Virus record (IMG/VR): IMGVR_UViG_3300034683_000117
Span: 1 to 64,000 of that record
DNA length: 64,000 nt
DNA from: a virus
Strand: one strand, 5' to 3'
Shown: one piece after another, positions 32,821-46,301 of the stretch
Position numbering within the stretch: position 1 is the first letter of the stretch
How the letters are laid out: every line of letters starts with the position of its first letter
Program-made: the position numbers and the translations under genes
The notes under the pieces: generated by a model
Seen by the model: only the letters and a program-made list of their open reading frames with translations
The model's database searches: none
What the model was told of the DNA's origin: nothing

Positions 32821-33717
32821 TTAAATCGTTGCAACAACATCCAACGGACTGCGATTTACTGCGGTTTTTAAAGCATTGCTATCAACATGTGTATATATTT
32901 GCGTTGTGGATATATTACTATGTCCTAAAATTTCCTGCAACTGTCTGATATCCATATTGCCACTCTGATAATTCAGTGTCGCAAATGTATGTCGTAAAGT
33001 ATGAACAGCAACGCCGCGTTTGTTCTCTATATTTAACCCGCTTCGACCTATTGCGTTCTTTACGATACGTTCAACCACATCATGAGATATGCGATTGCCG
33101 ATTTCTGACACAAACAGCGGCCTGTTCGGATCGGTGCAGCCCTGCGTATAATCTGCTAACTGTTTAACCATGTTATCGCTTAAATATACATTACGCTCTT
33201 TCCCTCCCTTCCCTTTGATAACAATATACCCATCTTTTATATCACCAACATTAATAGACACAAGCTCAGATAGTCTCATGCCGGTTGTAAGCAATAAGCT
33301 TACTATCAGTCTATCTCGCACCATGTTGCGCCCTTTGATATTATCAATAAGCTGTCGGCACTGTTCTATGGTGAAGTACCTTGGTATGGTTTTATCTATT
33401 TTAGGCGCATCGATATCCTGCATTATATTGTTATCTATAATCTTACGCATATGCAAATATGCAAAAAACGATCTTAAAGACGCAATCTTTCTACGCCTTG
33501 TAGAAGCGCTGCATCCGTCTTGCGATAATTTATATAACCATGCATAAATATGATCTATTGTGACGTCTTTTAACGCTAATGAGTCAATCGCAAAATAATT
33601 GTTGGCCATATACGAATACCACGATGCTATATCTTGTATATATTGTTTAATGGTATTGTCACTTTTATTAACACCAACTAAATACATTTTATAATCATCT
33701 AATATCGTACTGTACAT
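32821..33717 (-). CDS. Tyrosine recombinase (XerC/D-like)
   Basis: TGMRLSEL, GKGGKER, HTLRHTFAT, LGHSNISTTQIYTH. Confidence 0.95.
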   Translation of the reverse strand: MYSTILDDYKMYLVGVNKSDNTIKQYIQDIASWYSYMANNYFAIDSLALKDVTIDHIYAWLYKLSQDGCSASTRRRKIASLRSFFAYLHMRKIIDNNIMQDIDAPKIDKTIPRYFTIEQCRQLIDNIKGRNMVRDRLIVSLLLTTGMRLSELVSINVGDIKDGYIVIKGKGGKERNVYLSDNMVKQLADYTQGCTDPNRPLFVSEIGNRISHDVVERIVKNAIGRSGLNIENKRGVAVHTLRHTFATLNYQSGNMDIRQLQEILGHSNISTTQIYTHVDSNALKTAVNRSPLDVVATI

Positions 33718-35146: not shown

Positions 35147-35602
35147 TTATATCTGTCTATGTCCCCATATATGAGCTACACCATCAATTACTTCTATAAC
35201 TTCAACTTCTTCTATATCGCACCCAAAATCCCAATCTGCCGGAATATCTCTCCAGCTTGCGTATTCGTATACAGCATCACTTTCAACATCGTGTACAACA
35301 ACCGCTCCATCCCAATCACACAAATATATTGTATCGCTGTCATCTCCCGCATTGTCTACAATTTCAATCAAATGCTCTACAGCATCATCAAAATCATATT
35401 CATATGGATTTAACAAATCTTTCAACTCATCGGTATTAACCAATATTTCTGCCCGATGGTTATATACTGGCTCGGCAATTCCTAAATTGTCTCCCCGTGA
35501 TATATTAATTTTATCTCCATATTTATATATCAACGGATAACCACTATTTGCCAATGATTCTCTGGCTGTTTCCAGCAATTCCTTAGCTTGTTCTCTTGTC
35601 AT
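35147..35602 (-). CDS. Acidic hypothetical protein
   Basis: Start MTREQA after AGGAGG; D/E-rich. Confidence 0.65.
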   Translation of the reverse strand: MTREQAKELLETARESLANSGYPLIYKYGDKINISRGDNLGIAEPVYNHRAEILVNTDELKDLLNPYEYDFDDAVEHLIEIVDNAGDDSDTIYLCDWDGAVVVHDVESDAVYEYASWRDIPADWDFGCDIEEVEVIEVIDGVAHIWGHRQI

Positions 35603-35616
35603 TGTGATACCTCCTT

Positions 35617-35892
35617 TCAATCTTCGGCTACTAAATATATAGATTCTAACCCCGCCCATGGCGCATTAGCTGTTCCACTGTTCAACTTAAACGCATTAGC
35701 TATTGCTTCCTTGTCAAAATCGCCCACCCAGTCCAATGCGTCATCATCGTCGCTAAATTCGACATTATCTGTCCAATCATATTCTACCCATTCACCATCG
35801 GGTATCTGATAACTAACATTTGTATAAAACTCTATATCATCAAGCTTATAATCTGACAAATCTTCACCATCTTCAAAAAAAACATGTACCAT
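35617..35892 (-). CDS. Very acidic small protein (DNA-mimic candidate)
   Basis: 25 D/E versus 3 K/R in 91 aa by manual count. Confidence 0.6.
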   Translation of the reverse strand: MVHVFFEDGEDLSDYKLDDIEFYTNVSYQIPDGEWVEYDWTDNVEFSDDDDALDWVGDFDKEAIANAFKLNSGTANAPWAGLESIYLVAED

Positions 35893-36082
35893 TGTTCATA
35901 TACTCAATAACTACTGGTTCATCGTCTATTTTGACGTTTACAAATACATTGCCGAACATGCCTTTTTGTTCCTCTTCCTGAATTATTTCGTGCAAACCTT
36001 GTTGCGAAATATATTCGGCCAAATCGTTTAACATAATATAATCCGCTAAATCCATCATGTTTTCTTTTTTCAGTTTTAACAT
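35873..36082 (-). CDS. Hypothetical protein
   Basis: GGAGG RBS. Confidence 0.6.
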   Translation of the reverse strand: MLKLKKENMMDLADYIMLNDLAEYISQQGLHEIIQEEEQKGMFGNVFVNVKIDDEPVVIEYMNNGTCFF

Positions 36083-36094
36083 TTTTATTTCCTC

Positions 36095-36532
36095 CTATTC
36101 CCATTCCAGTCCATATTGTTCTACTAAGTCTATAAAATCACCATCAATGCTCGTATCAACATATACAGCCGTTCCATCATTATCTTCATCATCAATAACA
36201 ACAAGGCCCGCGGACAACCATCCTTCCACCTTTCCATTGTTTAAGAAATCTACCATTTCAACAGAATCATTTTTCCAATATAAATTAAAATGTTTCATGT
36301 TCTCTAACAGCTCGCTTGATTGGTTGATAGCCCAATCATAATTATCTATTGCATATTGTGCATCTTCTATATCTTCAGGAATAGTTGTACTATCCGCTGT
36401 CCATATAGTATCCGATGTTGTCCCATTGTCCCAAGTTGCAGCCAGTACCTTCGCTCCATCCCTTGTATGCGCTATAAAAAATGTATAGCGATCACCATCA
36501 TCCAATACAAATGCTGTTTCTTTATTTGCCAT
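36095..36532 (-). CDS. Acidic hypothetical protein
   Basis: GGAGG RBS; directly behind a phage promoter repeat; D/E-rich. Confidence 0.7.
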   Translation of the reverse strand: MANKETAFVLDDGDRYTFFIAHTRDGAKVLAATWDNGTTSDTIWTADSTTIPEDIEDAQYAIDNYDWAINQSSELLENMKHFNLYWKNDSVEMVDFLNNGKVEGWLSAGLVVIDDEDNDGTAVYVDTSIDGDFIDLVEQYGLEWE

Positions 36533-36617
36533 TTTTAATTCCTCCTAAATATTTTTTATTTTGTATCTATAATATAGAGTCTCAACGCTCTATATTTTAA
36601 ACCCTGCATAAAAATAT

Positions 36618-36815
36618 TTATTGTTTATTATTTTGATATTCGTTTATATATTTATCATAATTTTGCCATATATTGCCTAAATTGATGTCTTGGCATAATA
36701 TACCATCCACAATTGCATAATATAATTTTAGCACAATTTGTTTGTCTAGTAAATCCTGCACCGCCTTTCTAATTAGAAAATCTTGTAATTCTGTCATTTT
36801 TAATCTTCTTTCCAA
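36618..36815 (-). CDS. Hypothetical protein
   Basis: Fits the operon; probable start MTELQD. Confidence 0.45.
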   Translation of the reverse strand: MERRLKMTELQDFLIRKAVQDLLDKQIVLKLYYAIVDGILCQDINLGNIWQNYDKYINEYQNNKQ

Positions 36816-36929
36816 AATATAGAAGTTTTGTCATAATACAACCGTATAATATCTTTGGCTGTATTATATAAACCATATAGTGTGATTATAAGTATTGATA
36901 CTGTAATTATCTTTTGCAATAACATATTA

Positions 36930-37295
36930 TCACCCTTGAATATAATTTACTGCATCAATATACTGGTCAACTATATTTTGGAACCTTGCAATAGCTTCTT
37001 GTAGTGTAATACGCCCCATAAACTCCACCCCGCAATCTTTATTATTTGCATCTATACGTTTGATTTCTAGTCCATAAAACGTATATGATAATACAAATAT
37101 ACTATCGCAAGCATGTACTACAAGCGGCAAATCGCTTTGCGTTATTTCCATAAACCAATTTAAAGCCTCCTGTAAATTATTTTTAGCTTCTGTTTTGGTT
37201 TTACCATATTCTTTCCATGGTCCCAAAGCGGCGACATATCCGCTGTGTTTACGCATCAACGTATCTTTATATTCTGTTATGTCAATTTTTAACAT
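36930..37295 (-). CDS. Hypothetical protein
   Basis: Start MLKIDI after the AGGGGTGA RBS, immediately 3' of the mini-tmRNA. Confidence 0.65.
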   Translation of the reverse strand: MLKIDITEYKDTLMRKHSGYVAALGPWKEYGKTKTEAKNNLQEALNWFMEITQSDLPLVVHACDSIFVLSYTFYGLEIKRIDANNKDCGVEFMGRITLQEAIARFQNIVDQYIDAVNYIQG

Positions 37296-37314
37296 AATAT
37301 CACCCCTTATTTTT

Positions 37315-37393
37315 TGGTGGAGCTGCGGGGAATCGAACCCCGGTCCGGAGTTTTGCACGTTGGCCTTTCACTCCGTCGATACCTTCCAGCCCC
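37315..37393 (-). ncRNA. Mini-tmRNA: tRNA-like domain only (79 nt)
   Basis: GGGGCTG-GAAGGTATCGAC-GGAGT-(18 nt)-ACTCC-GGAC-CGGGG-TTCGATT-CCCCG-CAGCTCC-ACCA: tmRNA 5' and 3' end signatures, G3-U wobble, no D stem, no tag ORF. Confidence 0.8.
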
Positions 37394-37398
37394 TATCT

Positions 37399-37728
37399 TT
37401 ACACTCTTGCTAATGCCCTACACCCTATGATCTTACCCTGGTCATCTCTGACAGAATCATCTGGTATAACCAAATCTTGCCTATCTTTAGCAGCTTGGGC
37501 CACTAAAGCAGATACTATATACAATGTATCTGGCGCAGGATCTGGCAATCCGTCAACAGTACCATATAATGTCTTATTAATATTAACATTGATACCATTA
37601 ATATTAATAACATCTATAGTTTGTCTTGTCGTTGCGCACCTAGCCACTTGACCTGATGCTGGGATTGTTATATCCCCAGCATCTGTCAAGATATTGATAT
37701 CGTGAGGTGTTAAGTTAATTATCTTCAT
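37399..37728 (-). CDS. NLTPH-motif small protein, candidate Crn4-like ring nuclease
   Basis: IINLTPH, IP.SG..AR, GLP......YIVS, VRD..G.I.GC motifs. Confidence 0.5.
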   Translation of the reverse strand: MKIINLTPHDINILTDAGDITIPASGQVARCATTRQTIDVININGINVNINKTLYGTVDGLPDPAPDTLYIVSALVAQAAKDRQDLVIPDDSVRDDQGKIIGCRALARV

Positions 37729-38201
37729 ATTTTCACCTTCTCTATAATAAAATCTTTTACTGTTTGTTCAATATCTTCAAAATCGTATAAATACATGTTA
37801 CATGCAACATCCCAAATGTCGGCTACATCATCATCAGTCAATTTATCCACATATTCTGGGTAATGATCCTTTATATATTTTATTGCATGGTTATACAAAA
37901 TAGTTTCTCTGTTTTTGTCTAAAATATATTCATTATACATATACCATGCGTTTTGTATATCTTTAAGTATATCACCGCTAAAGTCTACAATACCTATTGC
38001 CTCATTGTAAAACCCAGCGTTATACAATTTTTCAAGATTGTTAAACAATTTATGTGAATATATACTTACGTACAAATCCGCAACTGTATTTATCGCGTCC
38101 TCTATATAGCCTTCATATTCAAATGCCACCTCATCGCACATCATGGCATCATCTTGTCCCTGTAACAGATTCTCTACATCGTATTTTTTATATTCTAACA
38201 T
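37725..38201 (-). CDS. Ocr-like acidic DNA mimic (paralog 1)
   Basis: IEDAINTVADLYVSIYSHKLF...GDILKDIQNAWY resembles the T7 Ocr core [21 protein letters not shown]...KDVIRILQARIY. Confidence 0.55.
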   Translation of the reverse strand: MLEYKKYDVENLLQGQDDAMMCDEVAFEYEGYIEDAINTVADLYVSIYSHKLFNNLEKLYNAGFYNEAIGIVDFSGDILKDIQNAWYMYNEYILDKNRETILYNHAIKYIKDHYPEYVDKLTDDDVADIWDVACNMYLYDFEDIEQTVKDFIIEKVKI

Positions 38202-38288
38202 TTTTCTTCCCTCCAATTTTATTATTTATGTATCTATAATATAGAGTTTTGATACTCTATATTATAAACCCTACACAAAAATTTTTAT

Positions 38289-38582
38289 TTATTCTTGCCA
38301 CCCTTCAAGGAGCATGGCCACACCATATGGTATATGGCTGTCTTGATTTGGACTATTCAATAGCCATACCAACGGATCGCCACCATTACATATACAATTA
38401 GCAAATAAATGATCGGCAAATGCTGGATTAACAACCACTTTCGCGGTGTTTACATCACTTTTTCCATTCCAACCTATAGCCTTATAAAAATCGACTATAG
38501 AGTGAATAGATACCTTGCCTACACGTACCAACCTAGCGTTCTTAAATACGCTGGGCAATCTTGGTTCTTGCAATTCTACCAT
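38289..38582 (-). CDS. Hypothetical protein
   Basis: GGAGG RBS. Confidence 0.6.
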   Translation of the reverse strand: MVELQEPRLPSVFKNARLVRVGKVSIHSIVDFYKAIGWNGKSDVNTAKVVVNPAFADHLFANCICNGGDPLVWLLNSPNQDSHIPYGVAMLLEGWQE

Positions 38583-38583
38583 G

Positions 38584-39084
38584 TCATTTTACCTCCTGTA
38601 AAACGTTATTTTGATTAACAAGTTTTAATTCAAATATTCTATTTTTATCTAGCTTTCTTTTTACATCTTGACGTTCTATAGTATTATAACTACCGTCAAG
38701 TATACCTTGCGTGTACTCTGTTATTTCCCAATTCCTAGCCTCAAAATATTGTTTAAATGTTTTATATGCCACCAGCTTTTGTTGCATATCGTATTTATTA
38801 GCTTGTAATTGTCTAATATAACGATATGTATACTTGTCGTTTAACTCAAACACACCATAACAAATCTTATTATTATTTATTTGTGTATTCTTGCGATAAA
38901 TTCTTTTTAATTCATCTATTACTTTTTTGCTTTGACCGCATATTGCCCAATATCCCAACTGGTTACGCATATCATAATCTAAATTAAACATCATCTTTTT
39001 GTTACCGATTATAACATATGCCTTGAACGATTCCGATGCATACCTGTAACAAGTATATGCATAATTAATTTTATCCTTAGCCAT
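38584..39084 (-). CDS. Hypothetical basic protein
   Basis: GGAGG RBS; TTGACA promoter at ~39200. Confidence 0.65.
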   Translation of the reverse strand: MAKDKINYAYTCYRYASESFKAYVIIGNKKMMFNLDYDMRNQLGYWAICGQSKKVIDELKRIYRKNTQINNNKICYGVFELNDKYTYRYIRQLQANKYDMQQKLVAYKTFKQYFEARNWEITEYTQGILDGSYNTIERQDVKRKLDKNRIFELKLVNQNNVLQEVK

Positions 39085-39211
39085 TTGATAAAACCTCCAT
39101 TTTATTTTATATTGCCGTGTTTTGGCGATTTGCTCAGGTACACGGCAAACCTACTCTTTAATAAGTCTTGTATACTAGAATTATATTATATAATAGTTAT
39201 ATTGTCAACTA

Positions 39212-39694
39212 TTATTGATCACCTCCTTTTATCCATTCCACCAATTCATCAACGATGGATTCGATATCTGCGAACTTGTTTCCATCATCAATATTTGTTA
39301 GTGCTAGTGCTAGATCGCTGACTTTTATTTTGTCTACAAATTCTGGATAGCGATCTTGAATAATTCTAACTGCATAGTTAAACACTATCTCGTCAAAGTT
39401 ATTATAAATTTGCCGCTCGGTATAATAGTACCATGCTTGTCCAATGTTTTTGATTAAGTCTCCAGCATCGCCATATTCTTGTATAACATCATCATAATTG
39501 CCACTATTATACAGTATTGGAACAGCTTCAAATAATACATCGTTCCATATACTGACCGATGAATCAGCTGTCTCTGTTATTGCTTCTCTAATTTCAACAT
39601 CACCAGCCACATCTAACACGCGGTCAAGGACTTGTTCGTCGTCCTGCAATTCCCCTAACAGATTCTCTACATCGTATTTTTTAAATTTTAACAT
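39212..39694 (-). CDS. Ocr-like acidic DNA mimic (paralog 2)
   Basis: Paralog of 37725-38201 (shared KKYDVENLL, AI...AD..VSI, GD..K.I..AWY.Y.E). Confidence 0.55.
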   Translation of the reverse strand: MLKFKKYDVENLLGELQDDEQVLDRVLDVAGDVEIREAITETADSSVSIWNDVLFEAVPILYNSGNYDDVIQEYGDAGDLIKNIGQAWYYYTERQIYNNFDEIVFNYAVRIIQDRYPEFVDKIKVSDLALALTNIDDGNKFADIESIVDELVEWIKGGDQ

Positions 39695-39805
39695 TTTTAA
39701 TTCCTCCAATTTTATTATTTTATTTTATATAATATATAGTATTTAACAATGTATTTTTAAACCTTGCCTCAATTTTTTTACCAGCATTTTTATTGAACGG
39801 TTCTA

Positions 39806-40054
39806 CTATTTTTTAACATAATAACTGGGATAACGTCCCAACTCATTAACACAATTGTAATAAATAAAAGCGTTAACTACAATGTTAAAATCTTCATTAT
39901 CGCTATTATCTTTATTAATAGCGATAGGATAGCCTAATATACCGTTTAATCTTGCATTACATGGCGCTATGTATATAGTATTGCCATTATCATATATTTT
40001 TTTTGCTATTGTTTTATTTATCCTTTTATATCCATCAACTTCTATTTGTCGCAT
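39806..40054 (-). CDS. Hypothetical phage protein
   Basis: Y.RINK..AKK.Y..G...VNAF.YYNC..ELG.YP.YY; behind a promoter repeat. Confidence 0.7.
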   Translation of the reverse strand: MRQIEVDGYKRINKTIAKKIYDNGNTIYIAPCNARLNGILGYPIAINKDNSDNEDFNIVVNAFIYYNCVNELGRYPSYYVKK

Positions 40055-40238
40055 TTTTAAACCCTCCAATAATTTTTAATTTTATTCTTTATCTATAATA
40101 TAGAGTCTTTATATACTTGTTTTTAAACCTGCTTAAAAATTTGCTAGACTTGTTTTAAGTCGATTCTTGCATAATATTATATTAATATAAGCACAAAAAC
40201 TGTCAAGAGGTTTTAACCTCTTGACTAAGTACAACATA

Positions 40239-40589
40239 TTATTGTCTAGTGATCTTTAAAATCAGTCCTGCAGCTTGATATAACGCCCTTGCCTGAACGT
40301 CAAGCCATATCTCATGATTATTCGGCTGCAAATCTCCACCATGTTTGCGCTTTAACTCTGATGGTGAGCATAGCCTCTCGGCTATATCACAATCATAAAT
40401 TAAAGCATTGCCACTTTCTGAATACTCGTGCCAACTTTTGGCACCATTTAATAACTGTTGTTTATCTTGAATATCTTGATCATCATTAAAATAACTCAAG
40501 ATATCCATCGCATATAGCTTAACACCTTTTTGCCATGCACTGTTTGCCTTTACGCCATTTATAGCTTCCCTTAATTCTTTTACTTTCAT
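40239..40589 (-). CDS. Hypothetical phage protein
   Basis: SAW.KGV..YA, LLNGA..W.EYS.SG..LIY..DIAERL, WLDVQARAL.QA. Confidence 0.7.
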   Translation of the reverse strand: MKVKELREAINGVKANSAWQKGVKLYAMDILSYFNDDQDIQDKQQLLNGAKSWHEYSESGNALIYDCDIAERLCSPSELKRKHGGDLQPNNHEIWLDVQARALYQAAGLILKITRQ

Positions 40590-40651
40590 CTTTTTATCCT
40601 CCAATTTTATTATTTTATTTTATATAATATATAGTATTTAACAATGTATTT

Positions 40652-41005
40652 TTAAACCTTATATTTGTATAGTGTTAATGCTATATCGTTATTGATCCAG
40701 TCAATTAACAATACGTATTCGTCGCCTAACAGATTATTAAATTGGCTATTGAAGTAATTGTTTATTTCATCAATTGCTTTATCGACAAGCAATATTTGCT
40801 CGTCAAAGTCATGAGGCACTTTATAACCTAACCATGTTAAAAATTCATTGCAGGCATCTTGTCCTGCTTGACTGGATACTATTGTCTCAATTATATACGT
40901 GTTGTCGTATAAGTAACCGTCAGCTTCTAGTTCTTTTTTGGCTTTCTCTATTGCTTGAACCATATTATCCTTGTTTATCAGTTTATCTATTGCTATTCTA
41001 TCCAT
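40652..41005 (-). CDS. Acidic hypothetical protein
   Basis: GGAGG RBS; behind a promoter repeat. Confidence 0.65.
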   Translation of the reverse strand: MDRIAIDKLINKDNMVQAIEKAKKELEADGYLYDNTYIIETIVSSQAGQDACNEFLTWLGYKVPHDFDEQILLVDKAIDEINNYFNSQFNNLLGDEYVLLIDWINNDIALTLYKYKV

Positions 41006-41171
41006 TTTAATTCCTCCAATAAAATTTATTTTTTATGTATCTATAATATAGAGTATTTAACTAGCTTATTTTAAACCTTACGCAAAAAATTTTTATATGA
41101 ATATATAAGTATATATTCATATAAAAAACATAAAAAAATAGCTGCTATATAGCAGCTATGTAATAAAAACA

Positions 41172-41717
41172 TTATTTTATTGAGTAGCCAGCTTCATTAA
41201 GTGCCTTTTTTATGAGTTTGAATTTTTTGGAAATAGCCATAACCGATACACCTTGCAGTTTGGCTATTTCTGTCATGCTTAAACCAGCCAGCTTAAGTTT
41301 GATTATATCGTGATACTTTTTTGGAATTGTATCCCAAGCTTCATAATCGCTATCAAACTGACTACTAACAGCCAGTATATCACGTGTAGCAACTAGATCG
41401 TCGCTTTCTGATTCACGCTCACGCGTGATATAGTCTAGCGACTCATGCATGATATTATATTTATACTGATGTTTCATAGCATTATAAGCGCAAGTCGCTA
41501 GATATGTAAGGCCGGGTATAAATGCGTGTTTTTTGTCGTTAGTCACAAACTTGATCATAATGTTATCAACTATATCTATAGCTTCATCAAAAGTTAAACG
41601 ACAAACTTTACTGATATACTTAATAGCCAACCGATATTGCTCCTCATTATATAAATCGATCGCTCCTTTCGCAGCTTGTACATATTGATACTGTTTGTTG
41701 TTATCCATTTTTTGCAT
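41172..41717 (-). CDS. Phage sigma-70-family (ECF/group-5-like) sigma factor
   Basis: Region-2-like F..TYL..CAYN; region-4 HTH IPKKYHDIIKL...GLSMTEIAKLQGVSVMAISKK; own TTGCAA-17-TATAAT promoter at ~41750-41780. Confidence 0.7.
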   Translation of the reverse strand: MQKMDNNKQYQYVQAAKGAIDLYNEEQYRLAIKYISKVCRLTFDEAIDIVDNIMIKFVTNDKKHAFIPGLTYLATCAYNAMKHQYKYNIMHESLDYITRERESESDDLVATRDILAVSSQFDSDYEAWDTIPKKYHDIIKLKLAGLSMTEIAKLQGVSVMAISKKFKLIKKALNEAGYSIK

Positions 41718-41719
41718 CC

Positions 41720-44447
41720 TCCATTTTTTATATTTATTTTATGCTTCTATTATAATGCTTGATTGTTTGATTTGCAATGCGAACATATACGAACAAATTG
41801 TAAACTTTTTATTAAGGCAATTTTTACCAATAGCTAGTAATACCAGTGTTTCGATAACAATTATTAACAATTAATACATATCATGTATAATTACATTTAT
41901 ATATATTTATGTTATATGTTTACAGTGAATATGTTACATAATTAACATTATATATGTTAAATAGGTTACAAATGGAAAATGTCAAATAATAACAAGTGGC
42001 TATAAGAGGCATTTTTAAGCGTTAGAATTGATTTTTTAAGGCAAGGTAAAATCATACGAGCACTATTCAAAAAATCGATTATAGCAAACGGTAGGATTGT
42101 AAAAGATGTAAAATGTTAGGTGAAATGCTAACATATATATGCAATACTAACATATAGTGTTAGTATTTTTACAGTTTGTGTTATACATATATTAACATGT
42201 ATGCATATGCTATTATTACATATTATATACATTAATATGTAATATGTGGTAATTACATAAGCATAACGATCACAATATCAAGTTATATATTATTATTTTA
42301 GTATGAATTATATTATATATAGTATAGTGCTTTAGTTATATTTATTTATGTTATAGTATATCAATTTACTATGAATTTATCAACCGATTGTTAACCATTG
42401 TTAAAAATTGGATTGACAATTGCCTTAAGGCCAGAATGCTGTAATCATTATCCAATTATGTTATATAGATTATTAATTGTAAAATATTAGTAATAAGCAG
42501 GCTACTACCCAGAATCGGATACTCATTATACATTTTTTACATTATTGTAATTGATTGACAATGGATATAAATGTTAATAATATCCTTTTTTTTGCTATTG
42601 TGTAATATACAAATATTGTATATAAATATATGTTGATATGAATATATGAATATATGAATATGTGTTGAAGTATGAATATATTGTATATATAGATATTAAC
42701 ATATGAATATATGAAACTATGAATATGATATTGTTAAATGAGTTAACAAAGTCTTGTTAAAATTGACAATTCTTGCTATTTCCTTTTATTTATTTTTATT
42801 TACGATTTTTTACGATTATTTATTTTTTTGATTGTTTCCATTTCCTTCCATTACTTGCGTCATAACATATATTATAACGTATGTTTATATTATCCAGTAT
42901 ATACCCACTACAGGTATATAGTTAGAAGTGGCTTGAAATAGCGGTTTGTATCCCATATACGGGGGGGATATTTTACTGTTAGCAGTTGTAAAAAATGGAA
43001 ATCAGAGGCGCTACCTCTTTTCCTCCCCCTCTCACCTCAATTTTTCACCCCCGTTTTTGCACAATTTTATTTTTACGGTTTTACTGATTTACTGCTTATA
43101 TTTTGGCCTAACAGCATAACAACTCGCATCTCTGCGGTTTGAACCATATCAAATCTCGCTCTGCCTCGTTTTTGCTATGCTATCTGTATATTTTCCCCGT
43201 AATATTTACGTTAGCTTATTGTATTATCCCCGCATTTTTTATCACCAAATTTTATAATTAATACTAAAAAATAGAATTAATAATTAAATAAATACTAATT
43301 ATTTGATTAAAAATTGAATTAAATTTCAATTAATTTGCCCTGTTTTTGTTCAAAAATCATTGATTTTCGATTAAATTTGGCCTATTTTTAATAAATTTTG
43401 ACTTATTTTGAATTAAATCCATATTTTATATAAAAAATATAATTTATTCTATTTTTGGGTCTATTTTTTATTATTTTAATCATCTCCGTAGCCAATAAAT
43501 ATAAAAAATAATTATATCCGTTAATGCTGATACCATATCGTTGCCCCCGACTATGTTCGCACAAACTTTCATACGTGAGTTTTGATGTACTCTCCATTGT
43601 GGGTCCACGATGAATGCATTTATTACTGGCGGGTTTTATTGCTCCATATCTTCGTCTTTAGCTTCATTGTCGCCGCAGCGACCTAAAACTAATTTATACT
43701 AAACTAATATGTTATTATATATTTAACATACTAATCATTTGTATAATATATACAAAATAATATAAGTTTTATTGATATTTATTTGTGCAATATGGAGAAT
43801 TTTTAATAAGGGGGTTGTAATAGCGTCGTTTTGCGGTCATATATTATGTAAGGGTATCGATAGAAAGACACTAAGAATAATAAATATATATAATATATAT
43901 AATAAATAATATTAGTACTGGTGGGGGCGCTACGCCGCCTCCCCACACCCCCCGGCGCATTCGTTCGCTAACGCTCACGAATGATAACCAATTAATAAAT
44001 CCTAATCCTTCGAAACTAAGAAATATGTGTTAATAAATAATCAGATACGAATAATCAGAACTAATCCAAACCAAGAGTGAATCAATAATAATATAATAAA
44101 TATATATAATAATATATATAATATATATAGTATTAGTATCTCAATCTCCTAAGTAAATAAGTGGCAACTGATACGGTCCAGCTCCTAAGTAAGAGAGTGC
44201 GTTGGTAAAATTTATATTTTTTTAATTGTTAAATTTTGTATTAAAAATTGTTCTTGACAACTCAAAAATATATAATATAATGGTATTATAATATGTATAT
44301 ATAAGATATAAGAGGCAAAGTCGAACGAAATGTCAGTTTTGCTTGATTTAATGCGTGTTTGCGGATTTGACTATAGTGCCAAATTTGGCACATTACCCTG
44401 TCACTTTTGGCACTATAGTCCCCCTGTGATATTAAAAATAAAGGAGA
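41720..44447. other. Long AT-rich non-coding region at the transcriptional divergence point (putative origin/terminus)
   Basis: No credible ORF over ~2.7 kb; short ATATGAAT repeats, a G7 run, GC-rich hairpins at 43920-43985 and an inverted repeat at 44369-44420. Confidence 0.6.
44369..44420. repeat. 15-bp perfect inverted repeat upstream of the rep-like gene
   Basis: GACTATAGTGCCAAA...TTTGGCACTATAGTC, with an internal GTGCCAAATTTGGCAC palindrome. Confidence 0.8.
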
Positions 44448-45056
44448 TTGGGTATGAAACGTATAGTTATTATGGAGTTAGAGACTACAGCAAGTAATAT
44501 TGAGTGGCTACAGCAACATGCTTTATCTGTTGTGGATAAGGACACAGGCGAAATAATTCATGGTCGTATTGTGCAAGATATTACTGATGATGTCGACAAA
44601 AGAGCTATATTAAAGATGACTAATAAGGTTCGTGATATATTTATGAAATTATATGTTAAAAATAATTTATGTGACATAGTGTTGTCACATATGCTGTCAT
44701 TACAAGAAATGGGACTATTATATGCACTGATGCTATTGACAGGATGGCAAAATAATTATGTTATACATCCACATACCAAGCAATATATGAGCTGTGCTGA
44801 TTTAACGGATATTACCAATATACCACATCGTACTTTGATAAGATATTTAAACAGTTTGTCTGATAAAGGGTTGATTGCGGTTGTTAATGAGCCAGGCAAA
44901 GGCCATATTAACCACTATATTGTTAATACCAATTTATCGCTTAAAGGTTATACCCTGTCTGATTCGTCGCAGCAAGATATATTTAATAATAAAGATTGGC
45001 TATACCAGCCGTCTACTCAAATAAAATATCGTCATTTTCTTAAAAATAGTACTTGA
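44448..45056 (+). CDS. Winged-HTH replication/maintenance protein (RepL-like)
   Basis: VDKDTGEI, FMKLY, L...EMGLL..LM, MS.ADL......RTL.RYL..L..KGLI, YIVN. Confidence 0.6.
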   Translation: MGMKRIVIMELETTASNIEWLQQHALSVVDKDTGEIIHGRIVQDITDDVDKRAILKMTNKVRDIFMKLYVKNNLCDIVLSHMLSLQEMGLLYALMLLTGWQNNYVIHPHTKQYMSCADLTDITNIPHRTLIRYLNSLSDKGLIAVVNEPGKGHINHYIVNTNLSLKGYTLSDSSQQDIFNNKDWLYQPSTQIKYRHFLKNST

Positions 45057-45100
45057 CAATCAGACCATCGTATGATATAATTATAGTATAGGGGGTAGAT
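45053..45100 (+). promoter_or_regulatory. Sigma-A-type promoter with conserved spacer (copy 4)
   Basis: TTGACAATCAGACCATCGTATGATATAATTATA. Confidence 0.75.
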
Positions 45101-45606: not shown

Positions 45607-46301
45607 TTGCAGCAGGAAAATAAATCTAATATCGAAATGACAGCATCTGACTTATCTAAACAGGTGTACAGCATGTTGGACTATAGCCTCAAAACATCCG
45701 ACGAGCGTAAGGCTGTAGTACAAAAAATTCAAGACGAATACGGACTAGAGATAGAATCAAGATATGAATATTATGCGGGTTCTAATCTCAATAAATACGA
45801 CAATTACCAGCAGTATCAGGCTATTACGCGACTGATGGAAGCTATGGCTGATTATGTGTTAATGTCCGATGATGTAAAAAAAAACAAGACGTGGACTTCT
45901 ACACGGAGAAACAAATGAACCGCAAGGTAAGCAGAGTTAAAACTGTGCAGCTAGATGATTATGCAGTACAAAAACGGCAATTTGACGATTATGTGGAAAT
46001 GGTTGCCGCACTGGATGTTGATATGTCTAATAAACAACATGTTAAAGGTGTTGTGAAAACTTATATTGAGGATAAAAACAGCGTAGCTCTCGAGGACGTG
46101 GTAATGGAATTTTGGGATACTGTAAACAGTATCAATTTAACACTCCTAGAGCGGCAAGTCCTTGATTTGTACCACAGACAAGAAATGTCGCAACAGGATA
46201 TCGCTAAAGAGCTAAATATATCACAACAGCGAGTTAGTTTTATCATAAGAAGGATTATTAAAAAGGTTGTAAGATATAGTAAAAATCAGGGAGTAAAATA
46301 A
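45607..46301 (+). CDS. Sigma-70 region-4 HTH transcription factor split over two frames at an A9 tract
   Basis: ORF 45607-45918 plus the -1 frame ORF 45891-46301 (LT..ERQV..L...QEMSQQDIAKELNISQQRVS); overlap contains GTAAAAAAAAAC. Confidence 0.6.

What the first reader, a model, noticed from the sequence alone, without database searches (positions are those of the whole stretch)
35147..41780. Early host-takeover island with a private sigma factor and six cognate promoters
Seen: six copies of GGTTTAWAA-N14-ACTMTATATTATA with invariant spacing, each in front of an RBS and gene. The gene heading the block (41172-41717) is a small sigma-70-like protein with its own sigma-A promoter (TTGCAA-17-TATAAT). 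The motif does not fit sigma-A spacing; TTTAAA...CTCTAT loosely recalls clostridial group-5 (TcdR/BotR/UviA) promoters. Inference: a two-step cascade in which host sigma-A makes a phage sigma that switches on an anti-defence cassette array (Ocr-like pair, ring-nuclease candidate, mini-tmRNA, acidic proteins). The repeats could also allow cassette shuffling by recombination.
Basis: partly seen in the sequence, partly recalled or inferred. Interest (0 to 1): 0.75.

Follow-up and report, generated by a model that had tools for sequence, protein, structure and literature searches.

The report
Phage sigma gene heading six-promoter array
A phage fragment from a subsurface metagenome carries six near-identical two-box promoters, unlike its own textbook host-type promoters, just downstream of a very divergent phage sigma-factor gene, so it probably has a private sigma/promoter pair; this is a known kind of phage control and was not shown directly.

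Summary
GGTTTAWAA-N14-ACTMTATATTATA occurs six times, all on the minus strand between 36568 and 41077. It occurs nowhere else in the 77-kb record, and 0.02 copies are expected by chance. Each copy lies 33-39 nt before a GGAGG/ATG. The two boxes are 96% identical between copies, the spacers only 40%. The gene at the head of the block (41172-41708) is a very divergent ECF-like sigma. It has its own TTGCAA-17-TATAAT promoter and its own terminator.

New here:
- The phage also carries nine perfect host-type promoters (TTGACA-16/17-TATAAT), so the six form a separate class. Read as sigma-A sites they score only 9/12 (TTAAAA-18-TATATT).
- The record is only about 54% complete.
- The clostridial group-5 resemblance fails. 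The left box matches the SigB-type -35 (GTTTAA).
- No relative with the motif or with this sigma was found, so co-variation could not be tested. No RNA data exist.

The cascade sigma-A, then phage sigma, then six promoters is the best reading (about 0.5) but remains inferred. The anti-defence content is weakly supported. The scan did not find this on other DNA. It is a new member of a known kind.

The parts
41749..41777 (-). Host-type (sigma-A) promoter of the sigma gene, TTGCAA-17-TATAAT
   Evidence: 10 of 12; sequence
41172..41708 (-). sigma1: a 178-aa, very divergent ECF-like sigma-70-family protein (P0001). GGAGG lies 9 nt before the ATG at 41708.
   Evidence: TIGR02937 E 5e-11 over the full length; phrog_1740 E 3.7e-6; ESM Atlas 0.97 to sigma-70/ECF clusters, several of them viral; top Foldseek rows are ECF sigmas, best E 4.8e-3; region 4 Z about 7, rmsd about 2.5 over 61 residues
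41138..41159 (-). Intrinsic terminator that closes the sigma1 unit
   Evidence: 9-bp stem followed by a T run
41042..41077 (-). P1 motif; drives g2 (40652-41005, 117 aa, pI 4.3)
   Evidence: It is the only promoter-like site between the terminator and g2.
40623..40658 (-). P2 motif; drives g3 (40239-40589). The stop codon of g2 lies inside box 1. P2 is identical to P4 over about 64 nt.
40202..40225 (-). Intrinsic terminator after g3
   Evidence: 10-bp stem
40094..40129 (-). P3 motif; drives g4 (39806-40054, 82 aa)
39728..39763 (-). P4 motif; drives g5 (39212-39694, Ocr-like, net charge -22)
39180..39208 (-). Perfect sigma-A promoter TTGACA-17-TATAAT inside the array; drives g6 (38584-39084) and g7 (38289-38582)
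   Evidence: 12 of 12
38235..38270 (-). P5 motif, whose spacer holds an inverted copy of box 2. It drives g8 (37725-38201, Ocr-like paralogue), g9 (37399-37728), the tmRNA-like RNA (37315-37393), g10 (36930-37295), g11 (36800-36925) and g12 (36618-36797).
36568..36603 (-). P6 motif with the same inverted repeat, AATATAGAG-N8-CTCTATATT. It drives g13 (36095-36532), g14 (35617-36082, frame broken in a T8 run at 35875-35882) and g15 (35147-35602), all strongly acidic.
45607..46301 (+). sigma2: a second sigma-like gene in the rightward arm, in two frames that meet at an A9 run (45876-45884). It lies behind a perfect sigma-A promoter at 45053-45081. It is a rival reader of the motif.
   Evidence: phrog_5767 on both pieces; C-terminal piece TIGR02937 7e-11, FliA/WhiG 5e-7, SigB/F/G 4e-6

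Best explanation
The six repeats are promoters of a phage-specific class. On infection or induction, host sigma-A RNA polymerase transcribes the single-gene unit made of a promoter, sigma1 and a terminator. The ECF-like sigma1 then binds host core polymerase and starts transcription at the six sites. In this reading GGTTTAA(AA) is the -35 element, about 16 bp of free spacer follow, ACTMTA(T) is the -10 element, and ATTATA runs up to a start near the following G/A. This yields a delayed-early set of small, mostly acidic proteins (two of them Ocr-like) and a tRNA-like-domain RNA. Shown: the motif, its geometry, its separation from the phage's own sigma-A promoters, the sigma-like nature of the head gene, and the insulation of that gene. 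Inferred: that the sites fire, where they start, that sigma1 rather than sigma2 or sigma-A reads them, and what the cargo does.
For: Six of six sites are exact and lie in one block directly downstream of sigma1. The boxes are 96% identical and the spacers 40%. g5 and g8 have drifted to 43% protein identity, yet their boxes still match at 21 of 22 positions. That points to selection on the boxes, not only to recent copying. The phage writes its host-type promoters perfectly: seven TTGACA-17-TATAAT and two with a 16-bp spacer. No third two-box class exists. The motif scores 9 of 12 as sigma-A, no better than dozens of background hits; 60 such hits were found where shuffles give 45.5. A terminator separates sigma1 from P1, and P1 is the only promoter-like site before g2. 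sigma1 is ECF-like. From established knowledge, ECF sigmas demand near-consensus two-box promoters with rigid spacing, which fits the all-or-none pattern. Phage phiEco32 sets the precedent of a phage sigma with its own motif and a genome split into two opposed arms (PMC4331800).
Against: No transcript data exist, and no RNA run holds this DNA. No relative carries the motif or sigma1, so co-occurrence could not be tested. A second sigma gene exists, and its region 4 is nearer the SigB/F/G/FliA group, whose -35 elements are GTTTAA or TAAA. Box 2 contains TATATT, and the bases after it resemble those after TATAAT in the phage's sigma-A cassettes, so a sigma-A reading remains possible. Typical ECF boxes (AAC ... 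CGT) are absent. Anti-restriction genes are usually expressed first, not after a sigma has to be made. sigma1 lies 0.4 bits under the curated cut-off, Pfam found no region 2, and the structure model is poor (pLDDT 58). Only about 54% of the genome is in hand.
Confidence: 0.5

Rival explanations
1. The host sigma-A holoenzyme reads the sites as TTAAAA-18-TATATT. It does so either alone, as weak early promoters helped by the A/T-rich upstream tract, or with a phage activator or appropriator that binds GGTTTAAAA and ACTC, as T4 MotA/AsiA does at middle promoters. sigma1 could itself be that DNA-binding helper.
For: All six copies pass the sigma-70 scan at 9 of 12 with an 18-bp spacer. The bases after TATATT (ATAGATA) resemble those after TATAAT in the sigma-A cassettes. 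AAAAATTTTT tracts lie upstream of P1, P3, P5 and P6. Early expression would suit anti-restriction genes.
Against: The same phage uses perfect TTGACA-17-TATAAT, often with TRTG, wherever it needs sigma-A. The invariant GG and ACTC have no role in sigma-A recognition. There is no TG extension. The terminator after sigma1 would be pointless if both units were sigma-A early.
Confidence: 0.27
2. The second phage sigma (45607-46301) is the reader, and sigma1 serves other promoters, perhaps in the missing half of the genome.
For: Its region 4 is closest to the FliA/WhiG and SigB/F/G families, whose -35 elements are TAAA and GTTTAA (PMC9847131). Box 1 contains both. It also sits behind a perfect sigma-A promoter, so it would be made early.
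Against: Its frame is broken in an A9 run in this assembly. It sits with the lysis and structural genes, and relatives have a sigma-like gene at the matching position about 14 kb before the capsid gene. That suits a late role. It lies 4 kb away on the other strand, whereas sigma1 abuts the array.
Confidence: 0.1
3. The conserved boxes are mainly operator sites for a phage repressor, like the SPBRE sites bound by MrpR in SPbeta, laid over ordinary weak promoters.
For: SPbeta has a repeated element in about ten early promoter regions, bound by a tyrosine-recombinase-like repressor (PMC10516654). This phage has an SPbeta-like capsid protein at 28.6% identity and a tyrosine recombinase at 32821-33717. 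P5 and P6 carry an inverted copy of box 2, AATATAGAG-N8-CTCTATATT.
Against: The SPBRE core, worked out here from seven SPbeta sites (about AAATACAAAWAATATGTATAT, between promoter and RBS), is unrelated in sequence and position. Its 9-mers do not occur at the six sites. Four of the six copies have no inverted repeat. Two boxes at -35/-10 distance make a promoter layout.
Confidence: 0.08
4. A host alternative sigma, of the SigB type or another type, reads the sites.
For: Box 1 equals the SigB -35, GTTTAA; P5 has GTTTAT, which is also a known variant (PMC9847131).
Against: No GGG -10 occurs at any allowed spacing of 12-17. From memory, box 2 matches no Bacillus sigma consensus. The host is unknown.
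Confidence: 0.04

Closest known systems
phiEco32 gp36 (phage-encoded sigma) and its TAATGTATA middle/late promoters, with phage 7-11 (PMC4331800)
   Same: A small, divergent phage sigma made from host-type promoters. A phage-specific motif repeated before several genes. A genome split into two opposed arms.
   Different: There the motif is a single 9-bp -10-like box before middle and late genes of a lytic coliphage. Here it is a two-box, 22-position motif, seen only before a 5-kb array of small genes next to the sigma gene, in a Firmicute-type phage with a tyrosine recombinase. There is no sequence similarity.
Bacillus phage SPO1: the host-takeover module and the gp28 sigma cascade (PMC13401047; details from memory)
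   Same: A dense array of small genes, each with its own strong promoter and RBS. An early phage sigma that redirects host core polymerase.
   Different: In SPO1 the takeover genes themselves use sigma-A promoters, and gp28 reads AGGAGA ... TTTNTTT at middle genes. Here the array carries the non-sigma-A motif.
ECF (group 4) sigma factors of bacteria
   Same: A two-domain size of 178 aa; a full-length match to TIGR02937; ECF sigmas at the top of the Foldseek list; a rigid, high-information two-box target.
   Different: There is no AAC/CGT-type promoter, no autoregulatory copy before its own gene, no recognisable anti-sigma partner, and the score lies just under the curated cut-off.
Clostridial group-5 sigmas (TcdR, BotR, TetR, UviA)
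   Same: An AT-rich -35 that begins TTTA.
   Different: TTTACA/GTTATA and the SRQ motif are absent; see the membership test.
SigB-type promoters, GTTTAA-N14-GGGTAT
   Same: Box 1 is identical to the SigB -35.
   Different: There is no GGG -10.
The SPBRE/MrpR operator set of SPbeta
   Same: A repeated element in early promoter regions of a phage with a related capsid protein.
   Different: SPBRE is a single 15-bp box downstream of the promoter and is unrelated in sequence.

Membership tests
Sigma-70 family, ECF-like (sigma1, 41172-41708) | Region 2 and region 4 both present, with no region 1.1 or 3, and about 170-200 aa | tested here: inconclusive
   TIGR02937 covers 8-163 of 165 positions at E 5e-11, but its 42.5 bits fall under the 42.9 cut-off. 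Pfam finds only region 4, below threshold, and no region 2. ESM Atlas gives 0.97 to sigma-70/ECF clusters. Foldseek rows 1-11, apart from row 6 (an integrative RNAP model), are ECF sigmas aligned over 165-203 columns, best E 4.8e-3. VIA gives Z about 7 for region 4, a score LuxR-type HTH domains also reach. The model has pLDDT 58.
Sigma-70 family, ECF-like (sigma1) | Binds core RNA polymerase and directs promoter-specific initiation | not testable with these tools
   Needs biochemistry or reporter assays
Group-5 sigma (TcdR/BotR/UviA) and its promoters | -35 TTTACA and -10 GTTATA at normal spacing | tested here: not met
   The consensus is from PMC4031146. Here the -35-like box is TTTAAA or TTTATA. 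The only GTTATA-like hexamer, ATTATA, lies 22 bp from it.
Group-5 sigma (TcdR/BotR/UviA) | SRQ motif in region 4.2 | tested here: not met
   The sigma1 C-terminus reads ...GVSVMAISKKFK... with no SRQ. No TcdR-type family appears among the NCBIfam hits.
Sigma-A (housekeeping) promoter | TTGACA, 16-18 bp, TATAAT | tested here: inconclusive
   The motif scores 9 of 12 at 18 bp with no TG. The phage's own sigma-A sites score 12 of 12.
SigB-type promoter | GTTTAA, N12-17, GGGTAT | tested here: not met
   The -35 is met in all six copies (GTTTAT in P5). No GGG is present at any allowed spacing.
SPBRE-type operator (SPbeta MrpR) | The 15-bp SPBRE sequence in early promoter regions | tested here: not met
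   The core was derived from seven SPbeta sites. Its 9-mers are absent from the six sites.
Ocr-like DNA mimic (g5, g8) | Homology to Ocr, or a strongly acidic DNA-mimic surface | tested here: inconclusive
   phrog_2568 E 2.8e-4 and 1e-4 over almost the whole profile. Net charge is -22 and -21. A profile of the pair finds only weak TPR-like rows among solved structures.
tmRNA (37315-37393) | A tRNA-like domain plus a tag reading frame | tested here: inconclusive
   Rfam RF00023 scores 65.9 bits against a gathering score of 47, but only 79 nt span model positions 1-374, so the middle is missing. ARAGORN calls no tmRNA.

The most novel reading that the evidence does not exclude
sigma1 is an orthogonal phage sigma whose only regulon is this array. 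The array would be a platform of swappable promoter-leader-RBS cassettes that insulates a pulse of counter-defence products (DNA mimics, other acidic proteins, a tRNA-like-domain-only tmRNA) from host sigma-A control. Cargo would turn over by recombination between the near-identical promoters.
Probability: 0.2. Interest if true: 0.65.

Novelty: new member of a known kind. Interest (0 to 1): 0.42.

Why it matters
If sigma1 reads these sites, this is a compact sigma/promoter pair with very high information content from a Gram-positive-type phage. Such a pair could serve as an orthogonal expression switch. It would also be an example of a phage putting its likely counter-defence genes, rather than its late genes, under a private sigma. 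The case shows as well that promoter classes can be told apart from sequence alone when a phage writes its host-type promoters perfectly. The principle of a phage sigma cascade is old, so the gain is a new instance, not a new idea.

Tried and rejected
- Motif scans: exact-pattern scans of viral contigs (18 loci), GTDB genomes (75 loci) and JGI metagenomes (120+ loci) gave single hits only, spread over unrelated taxa. That is chance level, so no relative was found. An earlier genome scan got no answer from the machine.
- sigma1 relatives: the word-based search found only sigma1 itself. The full HMMER search found one real relative, P0007, at 30% identity; the other hits were repetitive HTH proteins. 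P0007 brought three more proteins. Their only viral locus, L229, has 55% GC and is unrelated. tblastn against phage records found nothing for sigma1 or sigma2.
- Capsid relatives G001-G003 (52-53% identity): they have no sigma1 and no repeated two-box motif, and their sigma-like gene is too distant (33% over 46 aa) to inform.
- Other homology searches: megablast of the region against phages found no match. Sequence search of solved structures gave nothing useful for sigma1, sigma2 or the Ocr-like pair. The single-sequence fold was poor, pLDDT 53.
- Other checks: no late-promoter motif emerged from the rightward intergenic regions. Earlier scan notes list no look-alike stretch in other genomes.
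- Rejected readings: a phage RNA polymerase promoter, because none of the large proteins I scanned against PHROGs is a polymerase, although the 480-, 606- and 1872-aa proteins of the structural arm were not scanned and half the genome is missing. Group-5, SigB and SPBRE membership are rejected in the membership test.
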